Origin: Caldivirga maquilingensis IC-167
GTDB lineage: Archaea; Thermoproteota; Thermoprotei; Thermoproteales; Thermocladiaceae
Length of the DNA stretch: 32,000 bases
Direction of reading: 5' to 3'
Assembly (NCBI RefSeq): GCF_000018305.1
Contig: NC_009954.1
Location: 840,001 to 872,000, forward strand
Shown here: positions 2,458 to 26,581 of the stretch, piece after piece
Layout of the letters: every line of letters begins with the position of its first letter
How positions within the stretch are numbered: the stretch's first letter is position 1
Made by a program: the position numbers and the translations under genes
The notes under the pieces: generated by a model
What the model was told of the DNA's origin: nothing
The model's input: only the letters and a program-made list of their open reading frames with translations
Databases searched by the model: none

Positions 2458-3449
2458 ATACCCCTACCTATTGCCTGGGCTACTGCCTTAGCCTTACTCA
2501 TTAATTCATTAAACATATCGAAGGTTAATTGCTGCTCGGAGTCTGATAAAGCCTCCCACGGCCTTGGGTGAACCTCAACAATAATCATATCTGCCCCAGC
2601 TGCCACTGCGGCTAAGGCCAGTGGAATAACGTACTCCCTCTTACCGGCTGGGTGTGATGGATCCACGCATATTGGTAAGTGGGTTAATTTCTTAGCCGCC
2701 ACCACTGCACCTAAGTCCAGCGTGAATCTCGTGGCGTTCTCAAAGGTCCTTATCCCTCTTTCACAAAGCACTACGTTACCATTACCCTCAAGCATGATGT
2801 ATTCCGCTGCCTGAAGCCACTCCTCAACCGTGTTTCCCATACCCCTCTTGAGTAGTATTGGTTTCCCAGTCTTACCAGCCTCTTTAAGTAGGTCAAAATT
2901 CTGGGCATTCCTAGCCCCTATCTGAATCATGTCAACGTAACTGGCCACCACCTCAACCATCCTAGTATCCATAACCTCAGAGACTACGGGTAAACCAACC
3001 TCATCTGAGACTCGCCTCAGTATCTTTAAGCCATCTACTCCAAGTCCCTGGAAACTGTAGGGACTTGTCCTAGGTTTAAACGCCCCACCCCTCAGTAGTC
3101 TTGCTCCAGCCCCCTTAACTGCCTCGGCAGTCTCCTTAACCTGCTCATAACTCTCCACTGCACATGGCCCAGCTGCAACCACTAAATCATCACCCCCTAT
3201 CTTAACCCCTGAAACATCCACAATGCTCCTCTGCCTCCATTGCTTACTGGCTAACTGGTACTTGGCCTTAACGTTAACTAGTACTGCCCCAGGGTCAATC
3301 ACTCTAATGGCTCCCTCATCAACAGGGTCTTCAGGCCAAGTCACTATTAACTCCTCACCAAGCAGCTTAACCTCCCTGAACCTTACCTTAGCCTTATCTA
3401 GAGCTGATGCAACTTCATTAATCTTACCTGGCGTTACCCTTATTATCAC
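2454..3449 (-). CDS. 3-deoxy-7-phosphoheptulonate (DAHP) synthase, type I-beta, with an N-terminal extension of about 75 aa
   Basis: 331 aa. AGPCAVES, GGAFKPRTSPYSFQGLG, IQIGARNAQN and DPSH motifs of the KDO8PS-like DAHPS subfamily. GTG start at 3449 within a GTGA overlap with the upstream stop. A perfect GGAGGTGA SD precedes it. Confidence 0.85.
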   Translation of the reverse strand: MIIRVTPGKINEVASALDKAKVRFREVKLLGEELIVTWPEDPVDEGAIRVIDPGAVLVNVKAKYQLASKQWRQRSIVDVSGVKIGGDDLVVAAGPCAVESYEQVKETAEAVKGAGARLLRGGAFKPRTSPYSFQGLGVDGLKILRRVSDEVGLPVVSEVMDTRMVEVVASYVDMIQIGARNAQNFDLLKEAGKTGKPILLKRGMGNTVEEWLQAAEYIMLEGNGNVVLCERGIRTFENATRFTLDLGAVVAAKKLTHLPICVDPSHPAGKREYVIPLALAAVAAGADMIIVEVHPRPWEALSDSEQQLTFDMFNELMSKAKAVAQAIGRGI

Positions 3450-4447
3450 TTTAAGTCACCTCCAATTAACTCACTTAATTTACCTTCAGCTGCTGCTGAA
3501 TTAACAATGTTAATGTACTTGGTAATCTTATCCCTAACTTCACTGGCGTATGGATTCATTTCCTGAATCTCCTCAACAACATCAAGCTGCTCCAGGGTTC
3601 TTTCAATAGCCTTCATGGTTAACCTCAAGCTGTGGGTCATAAGTAGGTTTGCATCAATCCCACCTACTTTACCAGCATCCTTAAGCATGGTATAGAGGGC
3701 TAGTAGCATTAAATGGTGGGCAACCTGTATGTAAGCCATTACCTTATCATGAGTATCAGGATCACTTAACACCACTGTTCTTAAGCCTGCTGCCTCAAAT
3801 ATCTGAGTAGCCATTGGTAGTGAATCCCTACTTGTTAATGATGGTATTAGGACTACTACTTCACCCCAAGTATCCGTTAGGCTACCGAACAATGGGTGTA
3901 TGCTCAGGTACTTGAAGCCTACTTCCCTTGACTCATCCTCAATGATGTTGAATAACCTTGACTTAACCGAGAAGGAATCCATGAGCACCCTACCCCTTAT
4001 GCTCTCACTATTCCTCTTAATGTAGTTAATGGAGTCCTCAGTGGGTCTTGTGGCAAGTATTACTATGTCTGAGTCAGGTAATTCATCCCTCATGCTAATT
4101 AAGGTTGTTGGAGTGACTTGGCTTAAAGCCCTCTTAAGCGTCTTACCTAATCTCCCTGAACCCACTATAGTGACTTTAACGTTAAACCAATTCCTAATCT
4201 GCCTCTTGGTGGATGCCTTTATCACTAGCTCAGCAATGCTTCTGGCTGTTAATTCATCTAAACCAGCCTCAACTAAGCCACTGACCCATCTATCAATAAC
4301 TTCACTCTCCCTCTCATGATCCACGGGTGGTAGATTAAGCTTCCTCTTAACATCACCTATGGTTTCGGCTATGGTTAGCCTCCTGGCGAGTAACTTAATT
4401 ATTTCATCATCAACCTCATCAATACTCTTCCTCAACTGCCACAGCAT
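3446..4447 (-). CDS. tyrA: Bifunctional chorismate mutase (AroQ) / prephenate dehydrogenase (TyrA-like)
   Basis: 333 aa. The N-terminal ~90 aa are helical and CM-like (LRKSIDEVDDEIIKLLARRLTIAETIGDVKR...). A Rossmann fold follows (VTIVGSGRLGK), then a PDH-like core with HPLFG. Confidence 0.8.
   Translation of the reverse strand: MLWQLRKSIDEVDDEIIKLLARRLTIAETIGDVKRKLNLPPVDHERESEVIDRWVSGLVEAGLDELTARSIAELVIKASTKRQIRNWFNVKVTIVGSGRLGKTLKRALSQVTPTTLISMRDELPDSDIVILATRPTEDSINYIKRNSESIRGRVLMDSFSVKSRLFNIIEDESREVGFKYLSIHPLFGSLTDTWGEVVVLIPSLTSRDSLPMATQIFEAAGLRTVVLSDPDTHDKVMAYIQVAHHLMLLALYTMLKDAGKVGGIDANLLMTHSLRLTMKAIERTLEQLDVVEEIQEMNPYASEVRDKITKYINIVNSAAAEGKLSELIGGDLK
3456..3463 (-). promoter_or_regulatory. 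Shine-Dalgarno element GGAGGTGA upstream of the DAHP synthase GTG
   Basis: The minus strand reads GGAGGTGACTTAAAGTGATAA. The SD lies inside the last codons of tyrA, and the tyrA TGA overlaps the GTG start (GTGA). The element is complementary to the conserved archaeal 16S 3' end (...UCACCUCC...). Confidence 0.6.
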
Positions 4448-4449
4448 TA

Positions 4450-6228
4450 TTACTCACCCTTAATTAGCGTGAGAGCCTCATTAACAATCCTCCTATGTGT
4501 TAAACCAATGTACTCCATTAACTGCCTGGTTGATCTACCTGACCTACCAAACCCATTAATCCCAATCATCCTAATTGGCACAGGGTAATTTTGGGAAAGC
4601 ACCTCAGCTACCGCTGAACCAACCCCACCATGTGTTGAATGCTCCTCAATAGTCAATACCGCCCCAGTTCTCTTAGCTGCCTTAACCACAGTGTCAACGT
4701 CAATGGGTTTAATCGTGCTTAGGTTAATGACCATTACCGATACCCCCATTTTACCTAATTCCTCAGCAGCCATTAAAGCATCCCATAGGACTGGTCCAGC
4801 ACCAATAATTGCTAAATCATCCCCATCCCTAAGCACTGAGGCCTTACCTAGCTTGAATTCATCACCATTAGTTACCCTGGGTCCGTAATCCCTACCAATC
4901 CTGACGTAGGCTGGTCCCTGATGCTCCATTAACGCTAACACAGCTTTACCAGCCTCATTGGGGTCGGCGGGTACTACAATGGTCATGTTTGGTAGAGTCC
5001 TCATTAGTGATATGTCCTCGAAGGTTTGGTGGGAAGCCCCATCAGCGTAATCGCTTAAGCCGGAGTGGGTTCCAATAATCTTAACGTTAAGATTCATCCT
5101 AGATACCGTATTCCTAACCTGTTCCCAAGCCCTCATTATGAACATTGCGAACCCAATGGCCACAGGTCTAAGGCCTGTTAAGGCTAATCCACTGGCTACA
5201 CCAATCATGTGTTGTTCAGCTATACCAACGTCAATGTACCTGTTGGGGAACTTCTCCTTAAACCAAATAGCCCTTGTTGACCCACCTACATCAGCTGTAA
5301 CCACGTATAAGTCATTGTACCTTTCACCCGCCTCAAGGAGAGCCCTGCCGACAGCATCCCTCATTGATCCGAAGCCAGGTTCCCCACCATCATCCAGTAT
5401 CCTCTGTTTACTGGTTCCCTCAATGTCGGAAACCCCCTTCCCCCTAATGGTTCTGGCTACTATAACCTTGGGTCCATTTACCTTATGTGCTTGAATCAGA
5501 GTATCAATCAAGGCCTCTGGGTCATGTCCATCACACTCCAGTACGGTGAATCCCAGTGACTTAAGTGCCTCAGTTAACGTTGATTTAATACCCCTCACTG
5601 GTCCATCTAATTGAACACCATTGTAGTCAATTATTATGAATAAGTTGCTTAACTTAGATTCAGCAATATCCATTAACGCCTCCCAGGCCTGCCCCTCATC
5701 TAATTCACCATCACCCACTATTACGAAAACCTTACCTGAGGCCTCCCTAGCCATTAACCCCCTTGCAATACCCACGGCTGTACTTAACCCCTGCGCTAGA
5801 CTACCTGTGGATACTGGTACTGTTGGTAACTTAACCTCAGGGTGACCCTGCAGTGGGCTCCAGGGTTCATTAATCATCATTAACTCCTCCCTATTAACTA
5901 GGCCTAATTCCGATAACACCACGTATAATGCTGGGGCTGCGTGACCCTTTGATAATATTACGTAATCCCTCCTTAATGGATCATTATCACGTACATTAGT
6001 CATTAAGTATAGTGTAGCTATAATATCTATGCTTGATAGGGATGAGCCCAAGTGAATATGTGGATCTATTAGGCTTAACCCAACCAATATTGAACGGGCC
6101 TTATTACTTATCTCCTTAACCCTATTAACCAGGTTCACCTTAGCCTCTTTTACCATTCCAGGTATTCCACGTGGGTCCCGAATTCCATACCAATCTAAAC
6201 AGCCTATACAATCTATATTTTTAAGCAT
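4450..6228 (-). CDS. tkt: Transketolase with the N- and C-terminal halves fused in one polypeptide
   Basis: 592 aa. SKGHAAPALY, the TPP-binding GDGELDEGQAWEA...DYNG motif, and a C-terminal pyrimidine-binding half (DVGIAEQHMIGVASG). It is the first gene of the aro cluster. The start is ambiguous: Met1 at 6228 or Met25 at 6156. Confidence 0.85.
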   Translation of the reverse strand: MLKNIDCIGCLDWYGIRDPRGIPGMVKEAKVNLVNRVKEISNKARSILVGLSLIDPHIHLGSSLSSIDIIATLYLMTNVRDNDPLRRDYVILSKGHAAPALYVVLSELGLVNREELMMINEPWSPLQGHPEVKLPTVPVSTGSLAQGLSTAVGIARGLMAREASGKVFVIVGDGELDEGQAWEALMDIAESKLSNLFIIIDYNGVQLDGPVRGIKSTLTEALKSLGFTVLECDGHDPEALIDTLIQAHKVNGPKVIVARTIRGKGVSDIEGTSKQRILDDGGEPGFGSMRDAVGRALLEAGERYNDLYVVTADVGGSTRAIWFKEKFPNRYIDVGIAEQHMIGVASGLALTGLRPVAIGFAMFIMRAWEQVRNTVSRMNLNVKIIGTHSGLSDYADGASHQTFEDISLMRTLPNMTIVVPADPNEAGKAVLALMEHQGPAYVRIGRDYGPRVTNGDEFKLGKASVLRDGDDLAIIGAGPVLWDALMAAEELGKMGVSVMVINLSTIKPIDVDTVVKAAKRTGAVLTIEEHSTHGGVGSAVAEVLSQNYPVPIRMIGINGFGRSGRSTRQLMEYIGLTHRRIVNEALTLIKGE

Positions 6229-7849: not shown

Positions 7850-10800
7850 ATGCGTGATAATAAGGGTGATGGCGGCAGTGGGGAACCACTGGTGCTTTAC
7901 CACGGCATGTGCCCCAACTGCGGTGGCCCAGTTACCTCGGATAGGCTTAGGGATGGTTTACCATGCCATGTTTGCCTACCTGAAGGTTCAAGATTAAGGG
8001 CAGCATCATTAAGAGTAGTGTTAAGTGAACTTAATAGAGAAGGTAGATTAGTTAGGCTTAGGGATATCTTCAACTACTTAATGAAGTATGATGAATTCAG
8101 TGAATTATTCAGAAAAGCCACTGGAACCTCAATGTGGGGTGCTCAGAGGTTTTGGGCTAAGAGACTTATCAAGGGTAAGAGCTTCGCCATAATTGCACCC
8201 ACGGGTAGCGGTAAGACCACCTTCGGTTTAGTTGCCTCAATATACGTAGCCAGTAAGGGGGGTAGGGTTCTCATGGTATTCCCAACTTCAACACTGGCTT
8301 ACCAAGTGTATAAGAGGGCTTTAACCTACAGGGATTCCGCAGCCGTTAACATTAAGGTAATAACCTATAATGGCCTACTCAGCGAGAAGGATAAGAGTGA
8401 GGTGCTTAATGCCATTAAGGCAGGCGACTTCAATATACTTATCGTAACTAACGCCTTCCTACCAAAGGGCATGGAGATTCTAAGCAAGTACAGGTTTGAC
8501 CTTGTTTTCGTTGATGACGTTGACAGCGTCATGAAGGCTTCAAGCAGGAATATTGAGAGACTACTTCAGTTACTCGGTGTGCCGAGGGAAGCCATTGATA
8601 AGGCGCTTGAGATTGCGAAGATAAGTGACTTTAAGGAGAGGGAGGGTAAGGTGAGTGAATTAAGGAGGATCCTTGAGGGTAGGAGGATTGGTTCATTAAT
8701 AGTAAGCGGCATGTTAACCAGAACCAGGAGGACGGCTAGGGCTGCATTATTCAGGGAGATACTGGGATTCGATGTTGGTGGTAGGGCTGAGGGGCTTAGG
8801 AATGTGGTTGACCTATACATTAAGCCTAAGGGTGACCTTAAGGTAATTATCCTGGATTTAATTAGGAGGCTTGGTGATGGTGGAATAATATACGTACCCA
8901 CTGACTTAGGCAGGGAATTCGCCGAGGAGTTGAGTAAGTTCCTTAATGATAATGGTATTAACGCTGGGCTTTACCTAAAGCCTAAGAGGAAGTTGATTGA
9001 GGGCTTTGAGGATGGTTCAATACCGGTGCTAATAGGGTTAGCCACATCTAGATCAGCGTTAGTTAGGGGCATTGACCTACCCCATAGGATAAGGTACGTG
9101 GTGTTCGCCGGTGTACCTAAGATAAGGTTCAGGTTATCGCTTAAGGAGTTTAACCCAGGCCGTTACATAATGCTCCTCTCCTCACTTAGGGTTATTGCAC
9201 CAAGTGAATACAAGACTAGGATTGATAAGACTGTTTCAAGCTTAAGGAACATAATGAATTTAAGCCAGGACAGGATTAATAAGATTATTGAAGCTATTGA
9301 GAGAGGTGAGAGTCTTCAGGGCTTCGATAAATATGCCTCAGAAGTCATTAGTAACGCCATTAAGCTTGCCCAGGACTTGCTGAATAGGGATGATGTGAGG
9401 GAAGCCATGAGTAAGTCAATTGTTAATATTCAACGCATGGGTGACGATATCTATGTTATTCTACCAGACTCACCAGCCTACATACAGGGTAGCGGTAGGA
9501 CATCTAGAATGTACCTAGGCGGCATTACCCACGGTCTCTCAGTGCTTATTGTTGATAATGAGGCTGTCTTCAATAGTTTAAGCAGGGACTTAAGGTATAG
9601 GCTGGTGGACTTCCAGTTCATAAATTATGAGGAGTTTAATGTTGATGCCTTACTTAAAACCATTAATGAGGAGAGGGAATTAATAAGGCAAATAATGACT
9701 GGTAATGTACCGCAGAGCATAAGTCAAGTTGATCCACTTAAGTCAGTTCTAGTGATTGTTGAATCACCTACTAAGGCTAGGACAATAGCGAACTTCTTCG
9801 GTAAACCAAGCACAAGGGTGCTCGGTAGTTTAATAGTGTATGAGGTCACTTCAGGTAATCTACTATTAAATATAATAGCCACTAAGGGTCATGTGGTTGA
9901 GTTAGCCACCGAGCAGTATGCGCAGTCAGTTAGTAGTGATGTGGATTACGTGACTAAGTTCATATCAAGTGTAACCAGGAATTATTACTCAGTGTTGAAA
10001 ATAGATGGTAACTTCATCCCAATATACTCAACAATAAAGCGTTGCCCAACCTGTGGTAGATCATTCACTGATGATGTGAGTAAGTGCCCCTTCGATGGTA
10101 CGCCACTAGTGGATAGTAGTGGGGTTATTGAGATGCTTAGGGACCTGGCCACTGAGGTTGACCTAGTCCTAGTGGGTACTGATCCCGACTCAGAGGGTGA
10201 GAAGATAGCCTGGGACGTATTCAACATGCTTAGGCCCTTCGTGCAGGATATTAGGAGGATAGAGTTCCATGAAGTGACTAAGAGGGCTATATTGAATGCG
10301 TTAGCTAATCCAAGGGGGGTAAACGGTAATATGGTTAAGGCTCAATTGGTTAGGCGTATTGAGGATAGGTGGATTGGCTTTGGTTTAAGCTCATACCTAC
10401 AGAGGGCGTTTAATGATAGAAACATGTCAGCCGGTAGGGTTCAGACACCTGTGCTTAAGTGGATTATTGAGAGGTATATTGAGTATAGGAGGAATAGGGT
10501 GATTAGGTTAATTGTTAGGAAGAGGATTAGTGATGGTAAGGTTCTTGAGGTTTCCTTTGATAAGGTTACTAATGGTGATGAAACAGCCAGGGTTAGGCAT
10601 GACTTAAGGGATGTGGCTAAGGATAAGAAGGGGCTTAGAATAATAATAACTAAGCTCAGTGAATCAGAGGAGGAGGTTAACCCGCCACCACCCTTCACCA
10701 CAGACTCAATGCTCACTGAGGCTACTGCTAGACTTAGAGCCGGTACAGAGGAGGTTATGAGGCTTGCACAGGAGTTGTTTGAAATGGGTTTAATAACATA

Positions 10801-11704
10801 CCATAGGACTGATAGCACAAGGGTTTCAGCGGTGGGTATTAGTGTGGCTAAGGAATACTTAACCAACAGGTTCGGTGAAGGTGTCTTCACGGCTAGGGAA
10901 TGGGGTATGGGCGAGGAGGGTGCCCATGAGTGTATTAGGCCAACTAGACCCATTGACTCCGAGGAGCTTAGAAGCCTAATTGATAGTGGCGTGCTTAAAT
11001 TAAAGTTAACTAATAGGCACATTGCACTCTACGATTTAATATTCAGGAGATTCATGGCAAGCCAAATGCAGAGTGGCTTAGTTAAGAAGGTGAAGGTGGA
11101 GGTTAAGTTAATGCGCAATGGCGACATGCTTTCAAGTAGGGTTGATGAATTCGTAACAAGCGTGATTAGGAATGGCTTCTTAGCCATATATCCGACTATT
11201 AGGGTTACTCAATTCCCAGAGTCATCAATGGAGTTACCTGTGACTGAGGAGGATGAGGTTATTGTTAAGACAGTTCACACAACATACCCGTATAGGGAAG
11301 GTGATATTGTTGCTGAAATGAAGAGGAGAAGGATAGGTAGACCATCCACTTACGCCAAGATAATAGAGACTCTTAAGAGGAGGGGTTATGTTAAGGCCCT
11401 TGGTTCAACAAAGGTATTAATCCCAACTAAACGCGGTGTAGCAGCATACATTTGCCTATCGAATGATAAGGATGTGGCTAAACTCTACTTAAGCACTAGA
11501 CGCAATAAGGTTCAGGAGAATACGGAATTCGAGAGTTTACTGAAGCAGTGTAACGTTAACTTCAAGTGCCTTATAAGTGAGGATAGGACTAGAATGGTTG
11601 AGGAACACATGGATAATATTGAGAATGGAGATGAAGATTACTTAACAGTTCTGCATGAATTATTCAATGAGGCTGTTAAATATGGAATAATGCCTCAGAA
11701 TTAA
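7850..11704 (+). CDS. rgy: Reverse gyrase (helicase-like domain fused to a type IA topoisomerase)
   Basis: 1284 aa. N-terminal zinc finger (CPNCGG...CHVC), Walker A (APTGSGKTT), DDVD, and QGSGRTSR (motif VI). These are followed by TOPRIM (VIVESPTKAR, GTDPDSEGEKIAWD), an internal zinc ribbon (CPTCG...CPFDG) and the catalytic-Tyr motif (ITYHRTDSTRVS). Confidence 0.97.
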   Translation: MRDNKGDGGSGEPLVLYHGMCPNCGGPVTSDRLRDGLPCHVCLPEGSRLRAASLRVVLSELNREGRLVRLRDIFNYLMKYDEFSELFRKATGTSMWGAQRFWAKRLIKGKSFAIIAPTGSGKTTFGLVASIYVASKGGRVLMVFPTSTLAYQVYKRALTYRDSAAVNIKVITYNGLLSEKDKSEVLNAIKAGDFNILIVTNAFLPKGMEILSKYRFDLVFVDDVDSVMKASSRNIERLLQLLGVPREAIDKALEIAKISDFKEREGKVSELRRILEGRRIGSLIVSGMLTRTRRTARAALFREILGFDVGGRAEGLRNVVDLYIKPKGDLKVIILDLIRRLGDGGIIYVPTDLGREFAEELSKFLNDNGINAGLYLKPKRKLIEGFEDGSIPVLIGLATSRSALVRGIDLPHRIRYVVFAGVPKIRFRLSLKEFNPGRYIMLLSSLRVIAPSEYKTRIDKTVSSLRNIMNLSQDRINKIIEAIERGESLQGFDKYASEVISNAIKLAQDLLNRDDVREAMSKSIVNIQRMGDDIYVILPDSPAYIQGSGRTSRMYLGGITHGLSVLIVDNEAVFNSLSRDLRYRLVDFQFINYEEFNVDALLKTINEERELIRQIMTGNVPQSISQVDPLKSVLVIVESPTKARTIANFFGKPSTRVLGSLIVYEVTSGNLLLNIIATKGHVVELATEQYAQSVSSDVDYVTKFISSVTRNYYSVLKIDGNFIPIYSTIKRCPTCGRSFTDDVSKCPFDGTPLVDSSGVIEMLRDLATEVDLVLVGTDPDSEGEKIAWDVFNMLRPFVQDIRRIEFHEVTKRAILNALANPRGVNGNMVKAQLVRRIEDRWIGFGLSSYLQRAFNDRNMSAGRVQTPVLKWIIERYIEYRRNRVIRLIVRKRISDGKVLEVSFDKVTNGDETARVRHDLRDVAKDKKGLRIIITKLSESEEEVNPPPPFTTDSMLTEATARLRAGTEEVMRLAQELFEMGLITYHRTDSTRVSAVGISVAKEYLTNRFGEGVFTAREWGMGEEGAHECIRPTRPIDSEELRSLIDSGVLKLKLTNRHIALYDLIFRRFMASQMQSGLVKKVKVEVKLMRNGDMLSSRVDEFVTSVIRNGFLAIYPTIRVTQFPESSMELPVTEEDEVIVKTVHTTYPYREGDIVAEMKRRRIGRPSTYAKIIETLKRRGYVKALGSTKVLIPTKRGVAAYICLSNDKDVAKLYLSTRRNKVQENTEFESLLKQCNVNFKCLISEDRTRMVEEHMDNIENGDEDYLTVLHELFNEAVKYGIMPQN

Positions 11705-22723: not shown

Positions 22724-22905
22724 AAATAACGTATTCCTAAGGATTCAAGAATAATGGTTTTCCGCTCATTAAACGAATATTACGCATCATATCTCGGATT
22801 ATATTAAGGATGAGTTTAACGCGAGTATTGATGGGTTAAAGGTTTAAGATTAGGAACTTGGCTTCATCCTAAATGTTGAACAGTAAGTATTTTTCACCAC
22901 TGGTT

Positions 22906-25566
22906 TCATTTAACATACTTAAGCATGCTACCCTGCTCCTTAAGTTTACTAACTATTGCCTTAACCCTATTTAGGAGTAGACTTAGGTCCTTCTCATCAT
23001 ACTTCCTACACTCCTTCTCGTAGACTTCATCATCCGGGTGCCTCTCATTACTTAAGGCCTCCTCAATGGTGTTTCTAGCAATTATTTCATAGACCCTAGC
23101 CTCAACTTTACCCTCAGTCTGCCTAACCACACGCCCAACCCTCTGAATCATTTGCCTAGGTGAACCTGTTCCTGAAACCACTACGGCTACATCAGCATCA
23201 GGCACATCAATACCCTCATCCAACACTGTTGTAGTAACCAGGACCTTAACATTACCTAACCTGAATCTCTCAAATATATCATCCCTATTACTGGTCTTAG
23301 ATGTTATTAACGCTACCTTAACCCCAAGCTCCTTCTTCAATTCCTCGTAAATCTCCTCAGCCTGCTCAATATACTGTGTAAACACTATTACCTTACTTCC
23401 CAGTGAATACTCCAGTTTAGTTAATTGAACAGTCACTGGAATCTTAGCCTTAGCCTGAGCCGCAGTGTTCCTAAGCATTATGGCGTTATCCTCCCCAATT
23501 GACCTATACTCCTTAACCTCATCCTCACTTAACTTAACGTAAATCCTGAAGTGCCTTATTGGGACAACGAGACCAGCATGAACCATGTCTAGGTAAGTCG
23601 CCTTATGCACCACACCACCACTGGTTAGGTATATTAATTCCTCGTTACCATCCTTCCTAGTTGGTGTTGCTGATAAGGCTAACCTATAGGGTGCAGTCAA
23701 CTTGAATGCAACGTTCTTAAAAGTCTCAGCAGGCACATGATGGCAATTATGAACAACCACACCATCAGCTATGAAACTATGATCCTCCTCCACCTCAATA
23801 TCATAAACAACCCCTACCCCTCCTAAAATACCTCTAATGCCGGTGACTGGATTAATCTTAGGAATCCCCTCATCAACTTCATGTTCAGCATACGGAGAAG
23901 GTAGTGATTGCCGTATCGCATTATCATGATCTTTATCTACAAGAACGTTCACACTAAGTACTCTCACTGGGGTAAAGTATGAATCATGCTTAGCTTCATA
24001 CCTCTTATTTCCCATGGAATTAATAAGCAGTAATCCTTGTCCACTATCTTTAATAATGTCATCATCTCCAAGGGTAGTTGCTACTTTAGTGGGTTCATTA
24101 TTCATAGGTTTAGGTTGCTTACCGTATAATGGTTCCCTGAGATTTAAGCCGCTTTGAATTCTACCCTGTGGCGCCTGCGTATTGTAGAAGTATAGTAAGT
24201 CTCCGTTCCTTAATTCTATTGCTGGTTTCCACCCATTCTGTGTAAGGATTAGATGGTCTTCCGTTACCGTTAATTCGCCTTTCTCATGCGTAATCCTTAC
24301 TAGTCTCTTAACTAAGGGTATTTTGAAGTAATTAGTAATACGCATGAAGCGTCCTTTATGCGTAAGAACCTTAACGGGTAATCTCTTCTCCACAATCTCC
24401 CCTATGGGTATTAATCCCTTATCCGTAATAACTAATGCATCATATGGTAAACACTCATCGAAGATTGCTAAGTCGAATCTATCCCTAATGTCACCTATGT
24501 ACTTAACCGCTGAATTATATATGGCTACGGTCACATCCTTGATTTCATTAAACCCACCACCAAGCCTACCTGCCTCAATACCCAGCATCCTTCTGATTCT
24601 ATCATGCCACTGATTCATTAATTCCTCCGTAACCACTAGTATTATTGTAGGTACTTTAACTGTTGCAATGGCCTTTAATGCGATGAATGTTTTACCACCA
24701 CCTGTTGGGATGACCACTGTTCCCTTATAACCATTCTTAACCCACGCCTCTAATGCATTCCTTTGGAAATCCAGTAGATTAACATTATCCTTAGGCACTG
24801 GGATTGATCTAGGTTTCCACTCAACTTCCTTAATAACGTAGCCCAGTTTCCTCAGTAATGACTCTATGGTTTGCTTTTCAAATACAGGGAACCTAATAAT
24901 CCATTTATCACCATCCCTATACACATCATCCCTACCTATAACTGGTATTTCATACCTATTCAAGTTACCTTGCTTATCAACAGTATTGTAAGGTATTCTA
25001 ATCTCCCTAAGGCTCTTAAGTAGTCCCTTGGCTAGGAAGTTTAACGTCACCTTACCGTTATCAACAATGGCAAGTCTCCATTCAATTCTCCTACCGTAAG
25101 TCTCCCTTAGGGAATGATCATTCAGGAGTATTTTCACGGCCTCCTCAACGGCATCATCACTCTTAACCCCTAGTTTCTCCATCGCCTTACCCACAAGCTT
25201 AGTAACGTAATCCTCGAATGACTCAGCCTCAACGTATTCATCCTCCATTATGAGTTTAGCAACACATGGTACATTAACCCTATTACCCATTGCACACTGC
25301 TTAAACTCCTCCGGAACCTTAGGAACCTTAATTGATGCCTTAAGTAATGGCTTAACAATTAACTCATACTCACTGGCGCTTAACCTAAGTAGCTCCCTAA
25401 GCTTCTCAACGTCATTAATCCTACTTAATTTACCCACCCAGGTTGTATCACTGGGATTCCACTTAAACCCCATTCTCTTCAACTCATCCTTAACCTTGAC
25501 TACAGTCCCCCAGTTCCATTGCCTCTTAATTAATACACCATTAACATTAACCTTAAACTCCACCAC
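22906..25566 (-). CDS. XPB/Rad25-like SF2 DNA helicase (Res-subunit-like) precursor containing a mini-intein
   Basis: 886 aa, GTG start. Motifs: Q-like LLDFQRNALEAW, motif I (IPTGGGKTF), motif Ia (ILVVTEELMNQW), motif II split as FDE|intein|CHH, motif III region (LALSATPTRKDGNEEL), motif V (VTTTVLDEGIDVPD) and motif VI (SPRQMIQRVGRVVR). Residues 1-260 match nothing I recognise. Confidence 0.85.
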   Translation of the reverse strand: MVEFKVNVNGVLIKRQWNWGTVVKVKDELKRMGFKWNPSDTTWVGKLSRINDVEKLRELLRLSASEYELIVKPLLKASIKVPKVPEEFKQCAMGNRVNVPCVAKLIMEDEYVEAESFEDYVTKLVGKAMEKLGVKSDDAVEEAVKILLNDHSLRETYGRRIEWRLAIVDNGKVTLNFLAKGLLKSLREIRIPYNTVDKQGNLNRYEIPVIGRDDVYRDGDKWIIRFPVFEKQTIESLLRKLGYVIKEVEWKPRSIPVPKDNVNLLDFQRNALEAWVKNGYKGTVVIPTGGGKTFIALKAIATVKVPTIILVVTEELMNQWHDRIRRMLGIEAGRLGGGFNEIKDVTVAIYNSAVKYIGDIRDRFDLAIFDECLPYDALVITDKGLIPIGEIVEKRLPVKVLTHKGRFMRITNYFKIPLVKRLVRITHEKGELTVTEDHLILTQNGWKPAIELRNGDLLYFYNTQAPQGRIQSGLNLREPLYGKQPKPMNNEPTKVATTLGDDDIIKDSGQGLLLINSMGNKRYEAKHDSYFTPVRVLSVNVLVDKDHDNAIRQSLPSPYAEHEVDEGIPKINPVTGIRGILGGVGVVYDIEVEEDHSFIADGVVVHNCHHVPAETFKNVAFKLTAPYRLALSATPTRKDGNEELIYLTSGGVVHKATYLDMVHAGLVVPIRHFRIYVKLSEDEVKEYRSIGEDNAIMLRNTAAQAKAKIPVTVQLTKLEYSLGSKVIVFTQYIEQAEEIYEELKKELGVKVALITSKTSNRDDIFERFRLGNVKVLVTTTVLDEGIDVPDADVAVVVSGTGSPRQMIQRVGRVVRQTEGKVEARVYEIIARNTIEEALSNERHPDDEVYEKECRKYDEKDLSLLLNRVKAIVSKLKEQGSMLKYVK
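23746..24453 (-). mobile_element. Mini-intein (236 aa) inserted in helicase motif II
   Basis: Cys1 is at 24453..24451 (TGT), directly after FDE. Block A is CLPYDALVITDKGLIPIGEIV, block B is TVTEDHLILT (TxxH), block F is VYDIEVEEDHSFIADG, and block G is VVVHN followed by +1 Cys (TGC, 23745..23743). Removing it restores FDECHHVPAETF. No LAGLIDADG or HNH motifs are visible. Confidence 0.85.
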
Positions 25567-25612: not shown

Positions 25613-26581
25613 TTATTCATACGCCTTCCTTAACTCATCCCATGGAATCTTTCTACCGCATTTAGGGCAGTACTCCCAATCCTCGCTTAATAATGCACCA
25701 CAGTACGGGCACCTGTATTCCCTTGGCTTTTCAGGTTCAGGTTCAGGGCGTTTAACCTCCTCAACCTTCACCTGTGTCTCAAGGTACTTACTTACGTACT
25801 TCTCCCAAACACCCCTGGGATCCCTGGTGTATATTCTGAGCCTACGGTATGGTAAATTACTCATTGGCTTCTTAAGAACAATCTCCACGAACCTCCTCTT
25901 CTCATCAACCATTACGCTATCCGCATCTAAGGGTGCCTTGAGTACGTAAAGGTCATCAAATATTACTGCATCCTTATAGAAGGTAATGCTCTTAGTGGGT
26001 ATGTAAGGCATGTTCTGCATCATTGAGGTGTTTTGGCTTAGGTACGGTAAACCAGTATACCTAGCTACAACATAGAAGACGGCGAACCATATCCCAAACA
26101 TTATTAGGTAGGTTATGAAGTATCTCAGGAACTCCACCGTTGACTGAGCCATTGATGTACTGCCCAGTAATGCTGATATGACTTCAGCTATCTTATTGAA
26201 TAAGGTTGAGTAAACCAGTAGTACAGCAATCAGTAGAACTATCATTATGCCTAGGTTAAGGAACATCTTCTTACTTAAAGCTGAGTACTCCTTAGGTAAC
26301 TCATAATCCCTCTCCATGGCCTTCTTAATATCATCACCAGTTAACCTACTTAAGGCCTGTCTCCTCCTATACTGTTCACCCTCCCTCCTATTCCTTGAGT
26401 ATGACTTATAGCCAGCATAAGCTGATATACCGAATATTAGTATGAAGTATGCTATGAATAAGCCTATTGGCATCCAGTAATTCTTAATAACCTGCCCCCA
26501 TGCGAAGAATGCCGCAAAGGCAACTGGGGTAGCTACCCAAAGCACATACGTCATAGGCTTAGATGTCATTGTGTAAGACAT
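25613..26581 (-). CDS. Hypothetical 4-TM membrane protein with a C-terminal zinc ribbon
   Basis: 322 aa. Two TM pairs flank a charged loop. A soluble C-terminal domain follows, then a PEPEPE linker and CPYCG-x10-CPKCG. No family was recognised. Confidence 0.6.
   Translation of the reverse strand: MSYTMTSKPMTYVLWVATPVAFAAFFAWGQVIKNYWMPIGLFIAYFILIFGISAYAGYKSYSRNRREGEQYRRRQALSRLTGDDIKKAMERDYELPKEYSALSKKMFLNLGIMIVLLIAVLLVYSTLFNKIAEVISALLGSTSMAQSTVEFLRYFITYLIMFGIWFAVFYVVARYTGLPYLSQNTSMMQNMPYIPTKSITFYKDAVIFDDLYVLKAPLDADSVMVDEKRRFVEIVLKKPMSNLPYRRLRIYTRDPRGVWEKYVSKYLETQVKVEEVKRPEPEPEKPREYRCPYCGALLSEDWEYCPKCGRKIPWDELRKAYE

What the first reader, a model, noticed from the sequence alone, without database searches (positions are those of the whole stretch)
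23746..24453. A 236-aa mini-intein splits the DExH box of an XPB/Rad25-like helicase
The helicase ORF reads ...RFDLAIFDE | CLPYDALVITDKGLIPIGEIV ... ELTVTEDHLILT ... VYDIEVEEDHSFIADGVVVHN | CHHVPAETFKNV....

The inserted block has the canonical Hint-domain landmarks:
- Cys1.
- A TxxH block B about 65 residues in.
- A block F with an acidic stretch plus His.
- A terminal HN, followed by a +1 Cys.

Excision would rejoin the sequence as FDECHH, a normal SF2 motif II in which the +1 Cys occupies the x position of DExH. The unspliced precursor therefore cannot be an active ATPase.

The ~100-aa central segment (residues ~90-200 of the intein) has no LAGLIDADG or HNH motif. It is either a linker or a fully decayed endonuclease.

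I cannot tell whether this insertion site is already catalogued.
Basis: partly seen in the sequence, partly recalled or inferred. Interest (0 to 1): 0.8.

Follow-up and report, generated by a model that had tools for sequence, protein, structure and literature searches.

The report
Helicase mini-intein with fossil out-of-frame endonuclease
A self-splicing protein insert (intein) really does interrupt the ATP-hydrolysis motif of an XPB-like DNA helicase in Caldivirga maquilingensis, and its odd "linker" turns out to be the read-through of a dead homing-endonuclease gene that relatives still carry intact in a different reading frame.

Summary
**Observation:** confirmed exactly. The helicase ORF lies on the minus strand (22906..25566, 886 aa). 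Residues 372-607 (window 23746..24453) form a class-1 intein inserted between FDE and CHH of SF2 motif II.

- Three intein models pass their curated cut-offs.
- The Hint core folds confidently and matches the Mtu RecA mini-intein.
- A 94%-identical Caldivirga orthologue is exactly 650 aa and reads an uninterrupted FDECHH.

**Host:** Caldivirga maquilingensis protein A8MD01, named only "helicase-related protein".

**New here:**
- The "central ~100 aa" is really two disordered inserts (aa 94-157 and 174-213), separated by a conserved Hint strand.
- Both inserts are the frame-0 shadow of a decayed gene in the +1 frame. That gene encoded a C2H2 zinc finger plus a LAGLIDADG_2 homing endonuclease.
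- Seven relatives keep this +1 ORF free of internal stops inside an open intein frame: a Vulcanisaeta MAG, an Archaeoglobaceae XPB and other helicases.
- In the window the +1 frame has 8 premature stops and has lost about 137 codons in two large deletions.

**Prior description:** out-of-frame intein endonucleases are known but rare (cyanobacterial dnaX, actinophages).

**Verdict:** this is an ordinary, now immobile mini-intein. Its lineage is unusual and under-annotated.

The parts
22906..25566 (-). Precursor ORF: XPB-like SF2 helicase plus intein, 886 aa (GTG start; the end coordinate includes the stop). Identical to Caldivirga maquilingensis ABW01657.1 / WP_012185876.1 / UniProt A8MD01.
24454..25566 (-). 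N-extein, aa 1-371. It comprises an N-terminal region of about 210 aa with no Pfam family match, an XPB-like N-terminal part, and helicase domain 1 up to the D370-E371 of motif II. Motif I PTGGGKT is at 24688..24708; FDE is at 24454..24462.
23746..24453 (-). Class-1 intein, 236 aa (Cys1 ... His235-Asn236).
24175..24453 (-). N-terminal Hint subdomain, intein aa 1-93. It holds block A (Cys1) and block B (T64xxH67 at 24253..24264). AF2 pLDDT is about 90.
23983..24174 (-). Insert 1, intein aa 94-157. It is predicted disordered (pLDDT below 50). It is the frame-0 read-through of the zinc-finger, linker and start of the LAGLIDADG motif-1 part of the dead +1-frame endonuclease gene.
23935..23982 (-). 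Conserved Hint beta-strand (intein aa 158-173, FTPVRVLSVNVL) lying between the two inserts. AF2 pLDDT is about 94.
23815..23934 (-). Insert 2, intein aa 174-213. It is predicted disordered. It is the frame-0 read-through of the C-terminal remnant of the +1-frame endonuclease gene. Relative to the 377-aa relative, 108 codons have been deleted here, including LAGLIDADG motif 2.
23746..23814 (-). C-terminal Hint subdomain, intein aa 214-236. It holds blocks F and G: VYDIEVEEDHSFIADGVVVHN.
23793..24204 (-). Fossil of a C2H2 zinc-finger plus LAGLIDADG_2 homing-endonuclease gene, in the +1 frame relative to the intein. Pieces: zinc-finger remnant 24079..24204; motif-1 remnant 23929..24078 (GDG changed to DKD); C-terminal remnant 23793..23928. 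It has 8 premature stops, no ATG, lost Cys ligands, and two large deletions (29 and 108 codons).
22906..23745 (-). C-extein, aa 608-886, plus the stop codon. It starts with +1 Cys608-His-His (23737..23745), which completes DECHH. Motif III SATP is at 23662..23673, the RKD variant of the XPB RED motif lies within 23647..23658, and motif VI is at 23122..23145.

Best explanation
**What it is.** A class-1 intein inserted in-frame after the Asp-Glu of the Walker B / DExH box of a chromosomal XPB-like helicase.

**How it works.** The splicing steps below are inferred from the established class-1 intein mechanism; they were not tested here.
1. The gene is translated as an 886-aa precursor.
2. The Hint core folds. 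It consists of intein aa 1-93, 158-173 and 214-236. Two disordered loops project from it.
3. Cys372 makes the N-S acyl shift.
4. The thioester passes to Cys608.
5. Asn607 cyclises.
6. An S-N shift then yields a 650-aa helicase whose motif II reads FDECHH.

**Origin of the two loops.** They are not a designed linker.
- They are what the intein frame reads across the wreck of a homing-endonuclease gene.
- That gene encoded a C2H2 zinc finger plus a LAGLIDADG_2 domain and overlapped the intein in the +1 frame.
- In relatives the two frames are both open. The endonuclease frame is the better conserved of the two.
- The intein frame is kept free of stops and also encodes one Hint strand in the middle of the overlap.

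**State in Caldivirga maquilingensis.** The endonuclease is dead, so the element can no longer home. It persists by vertical descent, because only a precise deletion would restore the helicase.
For: **Intein identity and precise junctions**
- Three intein models score above their curated cut-offs.
- The Hint core is modelled confidently and matches the Mtu RecA mini-intein at TM 0.82.
- An intein-free orthologue has exactly the predicted extein length, and the DNA aligns without gaps once the 708 nt are removed.
- C1, T64, H67, D218, H225, H235 and N236 are invariant across 8 lineage members.

**Sporadic distribution, as expected of a mobile element**
- 16 of the 120 best homologues carry an intein, all at DE|CHH. 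The Caldivirga-clade proteins P0002, P0005, P0006 and P0007 lack it but keep the Cys.
- The intein N-terminal domain is 83-88% identical to copies in hosts whose helicase core is only 65-68% identical.

**Out-of-frame endonuclease in relatives**
- An ORF nested in the +1 frame scores 114-123 bits against LAGLIDADG_2, carries a C2H2 zinc finger, and hits I-SceI at E 1e-9.
- The intein frame and the +1 frame are both open across the overlap in L005 (Vulcanisaeta MAG), L008, L009, L010 (Archaeoglobaceae XPB), L090 and L091.
- Random synonymous recoding predicts 9-19 stops in the intein frame, and none of 5000 trials per locus was stop-free. The observed count is 0 in all six loci tested: L005, L008, L009, L090, L091 and L092, whose +1 ORF is DUF559/Vsr-like.
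- In the overlap region the +1 frame gives higher identity and alignment score than frame 0 in all 15 pairs compared.

**Fossil in the window**
- The window's inserts align codon by codon with the overlap region of relatives. Their +1 translation shows recognisable zinc-finger, motif-1 and C-terminal remnants with 8 stops.
- tblastn with the endonuclease hits the window at E 4e-4.
- The offset is the same +1 as in the relatives.
Against: - No experiment shows splicing.
- The two disordered loops total 104 residues and could slow folding or splicing at the organism's growth temperature.
- The -1 residue is Glu, whose effect on the splicing rate is unknown.
- Similarity of the window's +1 frame to the endonuclease is weak on its own (E 4e-4, 0.27, and profile E 0.046). 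It follows partly from the same DNA homology seen in frame 0, so it is not independent evidence.
- Expression of the +1 ORF in relatives is not shown. No consistent ribosome-binding or promoter motif was found upstream of it.
- AF2 modelling of the full 376-aa relative failed (mean pLDDT 36.7).
Confidence: 0.85

Rival explanations
1. The insert is a dead, non-splicing Hint relic. The gene would then be a disabled helicase, in effect a pseudogene that happens to remain open.
For: - The endonuclease has already decayed, and the element carries 104 residues of disordered loop.
- Splicing was not tested.
Against: - Every catalytic residue is intact and invariant across the lineage.
- The Hint core is 83-88% identical to distant copies, whereas the inserts vary freely by insertion and deletion.
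- Both exteins are full length with all SF2 motifs present, and are 94% identical to the intein-free orthologue.
Confidence: 0.06
2. The intein has been co-opted as a conditional switch. Possible triggers are a Cys1-Cys+1 disulphide, temperature or DNA. The switch would hold the helicase inactive until splicing is triggered. This is compatible with the main explanation rather than exclusive of it.
For: - The intein sits in the catalytic Walker B motif, so precursor and product should differ in activity.
- It has outlived its endonuclease.
- Conditional splicing is documented for other inteins in repair proteins (papers listed, e.g. PMC5238726 and PMC5790916).
Against: - Nothing here indicates regulation.
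- Close relatives do well without the intein (P0002, P0005, P0006, P0007).
- Persistence after endonuclease loss is what a selfish element is expected to show anyway.
Confidence: 0.12
3. The central inserts are a functional in-frame linker or small domain, unrelated to any endonuclease.
For: - No endonuclease family matches frame 0 in any of the 8 lineage members.
- The frame has stayed open.
Against: - AF2 gives pLDDT below 50 for both inserts.
- The inserts vary from 0 to about 240 residues among close relatives.
- They align to DNA that encodes an intact LAGLIDADG_2 protein in the +1 frame, and that frame is the more conserved of the two.
Confidence: 0.03

Closest known systems
Cyanobacterial DnaX (Pol III gamma/tau) intein
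   Same: - It is inserted at the Walker B motif of a P-loop ATPase (PMC4760082).
- Full-size copies carry a LAGLIDADG endonuclease in an overlapping, out-of-frame ORF on the same strand, and the in-frame peptide is predicted disordered.
- Mini-intein alleles and intein-free alleles coexist with the full-size ones (bioRxiv 10.64898/2026.09.14.751524).
- The Spl DnaX mini-intein is a PDB sequence hit for the window's block F/G.
   Different: - The host there is an AAA+ clamp-loader subunit in bacteria; here it is an SF2 XPB-like helicase in a crenarchaeon.
- The window copy has lost the endonuclease.
- Direct homology between the two endonucleases was not tested.
PI-MtuI / mycobacterial RecA intein
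   Same: - It is the best structural and sequence match for the Hint core.
- Actinobacterial RecA inteins carry an endonuclease from the same LAGLIDADG_2 family.
   Different: - In RecA inteins the endonuclease is in frame, and it lies entirely before the last Hint strand. In this lineage it is in the +1 frame and spans that strand.
- The host protein and the insertion site are different.
Non-canonical actinophage inteins (Gosselin, Arsenault and Gogarten, bioRxiv 10.1101/2025.01.02.630785)
   Same: - The endonuclease is encoded outside the intein's reading frame, and the in-frame region has no recognisable structure.
- The authors warn that such inteins get mistaken for decaying inteins or mini-inteins.
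   Different: - The types they report are antisense LAGLIDADG, antisense VSR-like and frame-3 Endo VII-like, found in phage polymerase, terminase, capsid and ThyX genes.
- The passages retrieved list four phage host protein types and mention no same-strand +1 zinc-finger LAGLIDADG_2 in helicases or in archaea.
Canonical LAGLIDADG inteins at the same DE|CHH site (lineage B: P0023-25, P0058, P0107, P0118, P0120)
   Same: They occupy the identical insertion point in the same helicase family and are also class 1 (Cys1 ... HN / Cys+1).
   Different: - Their Hint sequence is unrelated: 24-33% identity in the N-terminal domain.
- P0023 and P0107 have a precomputed LAGLIDADG_3 (PF14528) hit on the whole protein; its frame and position were not examined here.
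Archaeal XPB (Sulfolobus XPBII 6p4f/5tnu; Archaeoglobus XPB 2fwr)
   Same: - They are the best solved relatives of the extein (E 1.7e-63 to 2.6e-59), covering both helicase domains.
- An Archaeoglobaceae XPB carries a related intein at the same site.
   Different: - The window protein scores below the NCBIfam XPB cut-off (180 against 610 bits).
- It has about 210 extra N-terminal residues.
- It reads RKD where XPB has RED.
- It has no Bax1 gene next to it.

Membership tests
Intein (class 1, Hint superfamily) | Hint/intein sequence models score above their curated thresholds | tested here: met
   PF14890 scores 41.4 against a cut-off of 35.8. TIGR01445 scores 35.6 against 24.5. TIGR01443 scores 35.7 against 15.6.
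Intein (class 1, Hint superfamily) | Catalytic residues: Cys/Ser1, block B TxxH, block F Asp/His, penultimate His plus terminal Asn, and +1 Cys/Ser/Thr | tested here: met
   C1, T64, H67, D218, H225, H235 and N236 are present, and all are invariant in the 8-member alignment. The +1 residue is Cys608.
Intein (class 1, Hint superfamily) | Hint fold | tested here: met
   The AF2 core has pLDDT around 90. Foldseek against Mtu RecA intein 3ifj gives E 4.6e-8 and a target-normalised TM-score of 0.82.
Intein (class 1, Hint superfamily) | In-frame insertion at a conserved host site, absent from orthologues with a precise junction | tested here: met
   P0002 is 650 aa and reads FDECHH without interruption. 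The DNA aligns without gaps, 1953 nt against 1953 nt.
Intein (class 1, Hint superfamily) | Autocatalytic protein splicing | not testable with these tools
   This needs expression of the precursor followed by SDS-PAGE and mass spectrometry.
Mini-intein (no functional endonuclease) | No intact endonuclease domain, either in frame or in any overlapping frame | tested here: met
   Frame 0 matches no endonuclease family. The +1 frame has 8 premature stops and two large deletions of 29 and 108 codons. The +2 frame of the intein DNA is full of stops; antisense frames were not translated for the window, though the ORF list shows only one ORF of 60 aa or more on the opposite strand (24344..24613).
[quoted passage not shown] | Intact endonuclease ORF in another frame, nested between the splicing blocks, with the intein frame open across it | tested here: not met
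   Not met in the window, where only a fossil remains. Met in relatives L005, L008, L009, L010, L090 and L091.
[quoted passage not shown] | Descent from such an element: the inserts are homologous to the overlap region and sit at the same frame offset | tested here: met
   Codon-threaded alignment to the 377-aa relative. The frame-0 'shadow' profile hits the window intein at E 2e-4. The endonuclease profile hits the +1 frame.
XPB helicase (NCBIfam NF045503 equivalog) | Whole-protein score above the curated cut-off | tested here: not met
   The extein scores 180.5 bits against a cut-off of 610. XPB is nevertheless the best-scoring family.
XPB helicase (NCBIfam NF045503 equivalog) | RED motif after motif III | tested here: inconclusive
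   The window reads R-K-D. Across the family the motif varies among RED, RRD and RKD.
XPB helicase (NCBIfam NF045503 equivalog) | Adjacent Bax1 nuclease partner gene | tested here: not met
   The neighbours are a DUF2208 membrane / zinc-ribbon protein, a CxxCxxCC protein and an MFS transporter.
XPB helicase (NCBIfam NF045503 equivalog) | Closest solved structures are XPBs, covering both helicase domains | tested here: met
   6p4f and 5tnu at E 1.7e-63 and 2.2e-63; 2fwr at E 2.6e-59.

The most novel reading that the evidence does not exclude
The window's intein may be a fossil of a large, mostly unannotated class of dual-coding inteins.

- These inteins target the DE|C(H/Q) Walker B site of many SF2 helicases: XPB, ResIII-type, SNF2 and giant methylase-helicases, in both archaea and bacteria.
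- Their homing endonuclease is overprinted in the +1 frame across the intein's own loops and one Hint strand.
- The endonuclease is a zinc-finger LAGLIDADG_2 in most tested cases and DUF559/Vsr-like in at least one.
- Gene callers then report either the helicase or the 'C2H2 zinc finger protein', but not both.
- If this is right, many inteins filed as decaying or mini-inteins would need re-reading, and this class would offer a natural system for studying how two proteins share one stretch of DNA.
Probability: 0.55. Interest if true: 0.7.

Novelty: new member of a known kind. Interest (0 to 1): 0.5.

Why it matters
**For this genome.**
- The protein is named only "helicase-related protein". It should be read as a 650-aa XPB-like helicase plus a 236-aa intein.
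- The helicase's activity presumably depends on splicing.

**More broadly.**
- The apparent junk linker gave away an overlapping endonuclease gene in relatives.
- Seven relatives examined at the DNA level have a +1-frame zinc-finger LAGLIDADG_2 ORF; an eighth (L092) has a DUF559/Vsr-like one.
- In Vulcanisaeta genomes this gene is annotated as a stand-alone "C2H2-type zinc finger protein". In the one locus inspected (L005), the helicase around it is not called at all.
- Out-of-frame intein endonucleases have been reported only rarely: dnaX in 1998 and 2026, and actinophages in 2025. No paper found in the searchable library reports one in an archaeon or in an SF2 helicase.
- The series running from intact (376-408 aa), through single-stop forms, to heavily deleted forms (273, 243, 236, 232, 166 and 135 aa) is a ready-made record of the decay phase of the homing cycle.

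Tried and rejected
- **Word-indexed protein search with the intein alone**. It returned only two fragments of the same helicase intein and was not informative.
- **In-frame decayed LAGLIDADG or HNH.** No endonuclease family matched frame 0 in any of the 8 lineage members, including the 376- and 377-aa ones. This negative result prompted the look at other frames.
- **Antisense endonuclease, as in some phage inteins.** The antisense frames of the relatives carry 4-23 stops, and the longest open stretch is 180 aa or less. The 89-aa ORF on the opposite strand of the window (24344..24613) was not analysed further.
- **AF2 of the full 376-aa relative**. The model failed overall (mean pLDDT 36.7), so it says nothing reliable about the inserts.
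- **Codon-position GC and purine periodicity as a fossil of the +1 frame**. There was no clear signal beyond a low GC3 in the inserts (0.27).
- **A shared ribosome-binding or promoter motif upstream of the +1 ATG**. An ATG always lies 4-20 codons before the first CxxC, but no consistent motif precedes it.
- **Literature on a Caldivirga or XPB intein**. Nothing names it. The supplement of the Novikova et al. 2016 survey is not held, and Gorbalenya 1998 is not held. Whether a registry already lists this intein therefore remains unknown.
- **Other inteins in the window.** None was found with the lineage-specific N- and C-terminal Hint profiles.
- **Mobile-element or defence-island context.** Rejected: the neighbours are housekeeping genes (reverse gyrase, CysRS, primase large subunit), and the locus is syntenic in a second Caldivirga genome.
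Full report
**1.

- The only long ORF across the interval is on the minus strand: 22906..25566, 886 aa.
- Residues 372-607 map exactly to window 23746..24453 and read CLPYDAL...VVVHN. They are flanked by ...LAIFDE and CHHVPAE....
- The 236-aa block passes three curated intein models. Pfam Intein_splicing scores 41.4 against 35.8, TIGR01445 scores 35.6 against 24.5, and TIGR01443 scores 35.7 against 15.6.
- Its PDB sequence hits are the Mtu RecA and Spl DnaX mini-inteins.
- AF2 models a Hint core (aa 1-93, 158-173, 214-236) at pLDDT around 90. Foldseek places that core on the Mtu RecA intein with a target-normalised TM-score of 0.82.
- The profiles built from this lineage find no second intein in the window.

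**2. The junctions are exact.**

- The window is from Caldivirga maquilingensis. The protein is ABW01657.1 / A8MD01 and is named only "helicase-related protein".
- A Caldivirga sp. MAG encodes a 94%-identical orthologue of exactly 650 aa with an uninterrupted FDECHHVPAETF. It sits in the same gene neighbourhood.
- With the 708 nt removed, the window gene aligns to that allele without a single gap: 1953 nt against 1953 nt, 90.2% identity.

**3. Host and site.**

- The extein has ResIII, Helicase_C and ERCC3_RAD25_C domains.
- Its best NCBIfam family is XPB, but at 180 bits against a cut-off of 610.
- Its best solved relatives are Sulfolobus XPBII and Archaeoglobus XPB, at E 1.7e-63 to 2.6e-59.
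- It has about 210 extra N-terminal residues, reads RKD where XPB has RED, and has no Bax1 gene beside it.
- I therefore call it XPB-like, not XPB.
- Among its 120 best homologues, 16 carry an intein, and every one is at the same DE|CHH point.
- Intein-free members of the Caldivirga clade keep Cys at the x position of DExH. Most homologues named Pyrobaculum or Thermoproteus, and the intein-free Vulcanisaeta ones, have Ala there.
- Two unrelated intein lineages use the site:
  - Lineage A (CLPYDAL...VVVHN, 135-377 aa) includes the window's copy.
  - Lineage B (CL..T...LTHN, 150-369 aa) has members with a LAGLIDADG_3 hit.
- Lineage A's N-terminal domain is 83-88% identical between hosts whose helicase cores are only 65-68% identical. 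This suggests past horizontal movement.

**4. The site is a hot spot.**

- An exhaustive search with the intein against 1.84 billion representative proteins gave 1423 hits.
- For 121 of the best hits I could fix both intein ends. In 66 the intein is preceded by DE, and in 63 the site reads DE|[C/S][H/Q].
- Of the 40 hits scanned, 32 match Helicase_C, 24 ResIII and 15 SNF2-related domains.
- Splitting a DExH or Walker B box is therefore a common habit of this intein group, not a peculiarity of this gene.

**5. What the "central segment" is.**

- Aligning lineage A shows two variable inserts either side of a conserved strand, FxPVRVLNVE. Together the inserts range from 0 to about 240 residues.
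- In the window they are aa 94-157 and 174-213, and both have pLDDT below 50.
- No member has an in-frame endonuclease domain, not even the 376- and 377-aa copies.
- The inserts have an odd charged, low-complexity composition, yet they share short motifs across very distant copies.
- This is explained by an ORF in the +1 frame lying wholly inside the intein DNA. It encodes a C2H2 zinc finger plus a LAGLIDADG_2 endonuclease: PF03161 at 114-123 bits, and I-SceI at E 1e-9.

**6. The overlap is real and is maintained.**

- In a Vulcanisaeta MAG (L005) the helicase-plus-intein ORF (2548..5676) and the 276-aa endonuclease ORF (3983..4813) are both intact. NCBI annotated only the endonuclease there, as a "C2H2-type zinc finger protein". 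The same protein is annotated in the cultured Vulcanisaeta sp. JCM 16161.
- Five further loci have a stop-free +1 ORF of 284-333 aa at the same offset:
  - an XPB-like gene (L008);
  - another ResIII helicase (L009);
  - an Archaeoglobaceae XPB (L010);
  - two further metagenomic helicases (L090, L091).
- A 2592-aa methylase-helicase (L092) has a +1 ORF of a different kind, DUF559/Vsr-like.
- Random synonymous recoding of each endonuclease predicts 9-19 stops in the intein frame, and no trial out of 5000 was stop-free. The observed number is 0 in all six loci tested.
- Across the overlap the +1 frame is always the better conserved of the two, in all 15 pairs compared.
- Two copies (L003, which resembles V. 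moutnovskia, and L004) each have a single stop at different positions, which looks like early decay.
- A profile of the frame-0 "shadow" peptide recognises 19 of the 104 large representative inteins, 17 of them at DE sites. This is only an indirect estimate of how widespread the arrangement is.

**7. The window copy is a fossil.**

- Threading the window's codons onto the 377-aa relative shows its +1 frame still spells pieces of the endonuclease:
  - a zinc-finger remnant (RRRHRV.FKAA.ISGNHY against CRIC.FPTL.ALGCHY);
  - a motif-1 remnant (LLKIVDKDYCLLIP against VLGMVLGDGYLTIP);
  - the C-terminal 45 residues.
- That frame has 8 premature stops, no start codon, lost Cys ligands, and deletions of 29 and 108 codons. 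The larger deletion removes LAGLIDADG motif 2.
- tblastn with the endonuclease finds the window at E 4e-4, in the +1 frame relative to the intein.
- This similarity comes from the same DNA homology seen in frame 0, so it is not independent evidence. It does show which frame once carried the meaning.

**8. Mechanism.**

- Shown here: a Hint fold with all class-1 catalytic residues, a precise in-frame insertion, patchy distribution, and a dead endonuclease gene.
- Inferred from established intein chemistry: splicing through Cys372, Cys608 and Asn607 to give a 650-aa helicase with FDECHH.
- Also inferred: the precursor is inactive because motif II is split, and the element is now immobile and inherited vertically.
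- How relatives express the +1 ORF is unknown. An ATG always lies just before the zinc finger, but no common upstream signal was found.

**9. Comparison with what is known.**

- Out-of-frame intein endonucleases have been described for the cyanobacterial dnaX intein, which also sits at a Walker B motif (PMC4760082; bioRxiv 10.64898/2026.09.14.751524).
- They have also been described in actinophage inteins, as antisense LAGLIDADG, antisense VSR-like and frame-3 Endo VII-like types (bioRxiv 10.1101/2025.01.02.630785). Those authors predict that such inteins are overlooked as "decaying" or "mini".
- The same LAGLIDADG_2 family occurs in frame in actinobacterial RecA inteins. There it lies before the last Hint strand rather than across it.
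- I found no paper that names this Caldivirga intein, an XPB intein, or an out-of-frame endonuclease in an archaeal or helicase intein. The relevant registry tables could not be read.

**10. Verdict.**

- The finding is correct. As stated, it is an ordinary mini-intein at a common kind of site in a public genome.
- Its value lies in what its "linker" reveals: descent from a rare dual-coding intein lineage that appears to be widespread in SF2 helicases and is poorly annotated.
- Scores: interest 0.5; novelty, new member of a known kind.

Noticed in passing
L005:2548-5676 (+), with the nested ORF at L005:3983-4813 (+): In a Vulcanisaeta sp. MAG the helicase-plus-376-aa-intein ORF and a 276-aa +1-frame zinc-finger LAGLIDADG_2 ORF are both intact. 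The NCBI annotation calls only the small ORF ('C2H2-type zinc finger protein') and leaves the helicase uncalled. The same protein is annotated in Vulcanisaeta sp. JCM 16161. A 221-aa truncated form is annotated in V. moutnovskia.
   Followed up: yes
L092:301-8079, intein at protein aa 1354-1765: A 2592-aa methylase-helicase carries a related intein at VDE|CH. Its +1-frame ORF (343 aa) has several zinc ribbons plus a DUF559/Vsr-like endonuclease domain instead of LAGLIDADG. This is a second endonuclease type in the same overlapping arrangement.
   Followed up: partly
L010:1968-4643, with the nested ORF at L010:2887-3780: An Archaeoglobaceae MAG helicase that reads EREDG after motif III and resembles Archaeoglobus XPB by eye carries a 408-aa intein at FDE|CHH. 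A stop-free 298-aa +1-frame reading frame inside it encodes two zinc fingers and a LAGLIDADG_2 domain.
   Followed up: partly
P0023-25, P0058, P0107, P0118, P0120: A second, unrelated intein lineage occupies exactly the same DE|CHH site in the same helicase family. Two of its members (P0023, P0107) have a LAGLIDADG_3 Pfam hit.
   Followed up: partly
L089, L061 and 12 other actinobacterial loci: RecA inteins of Mycobacterium asiaticum, Marmoricola and others carry the same LAGLIDADG_2 family in frame. There the endonuclease precedes the last Hint strand, whereas in the helicase lineage it spans that strand. A simple frameshift from such an ancestor therefore does not explain the +1 arrangement.
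   Followed up: partly
P0122 (134 aa): This predicted protein starts in the intein frame (MLTHKGRFMRITNYF...) and runs on into the endonuclease frame (...GGHYVTAHNPELQ...). It looks like a frameshifted or misassembled allele that joins the two frames.
   Followed up: no
window 22724-22905 compared with L001:5981-7534: Between the helicase and the MFS transporter, the Caldivirga sp. MAG has three extra genes (an HTH_45 protein and two hypotheticals, about 1.6 kb). The window has only a 182-bp spacer at that position.
   Followed up: no
Helicase homologues P0001-P0120: The x residue of DExH is Cys in every intein-bearing copy and in the intein-free Caldivirga-clade copies, but it is Ala in most of the listed homologues (FDEAHH, 58). 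Only Cys alleles could serve as splicing-competent target sites.
   Followed up: yes
window 7850-11704 (+): A 1284-aa reverse gyrase has its Toprim match stretched over residues 633-808, whereas the model is 96 positions long. This is probably the usual reverse-gyrase insertion. The lineage-specific N- and C-terminal Hint profiles found no intein there.
   Followed up: partly
window 25613-26581 (-): The gene immediately upstream of the helicase encodes a DUF2208 membrane protein with a C-terminal zinc ribbon. The pairing is conserved in the Caldivirga MAG. Whether there is any functional link to the helicase is unknown.
   Followed up: no
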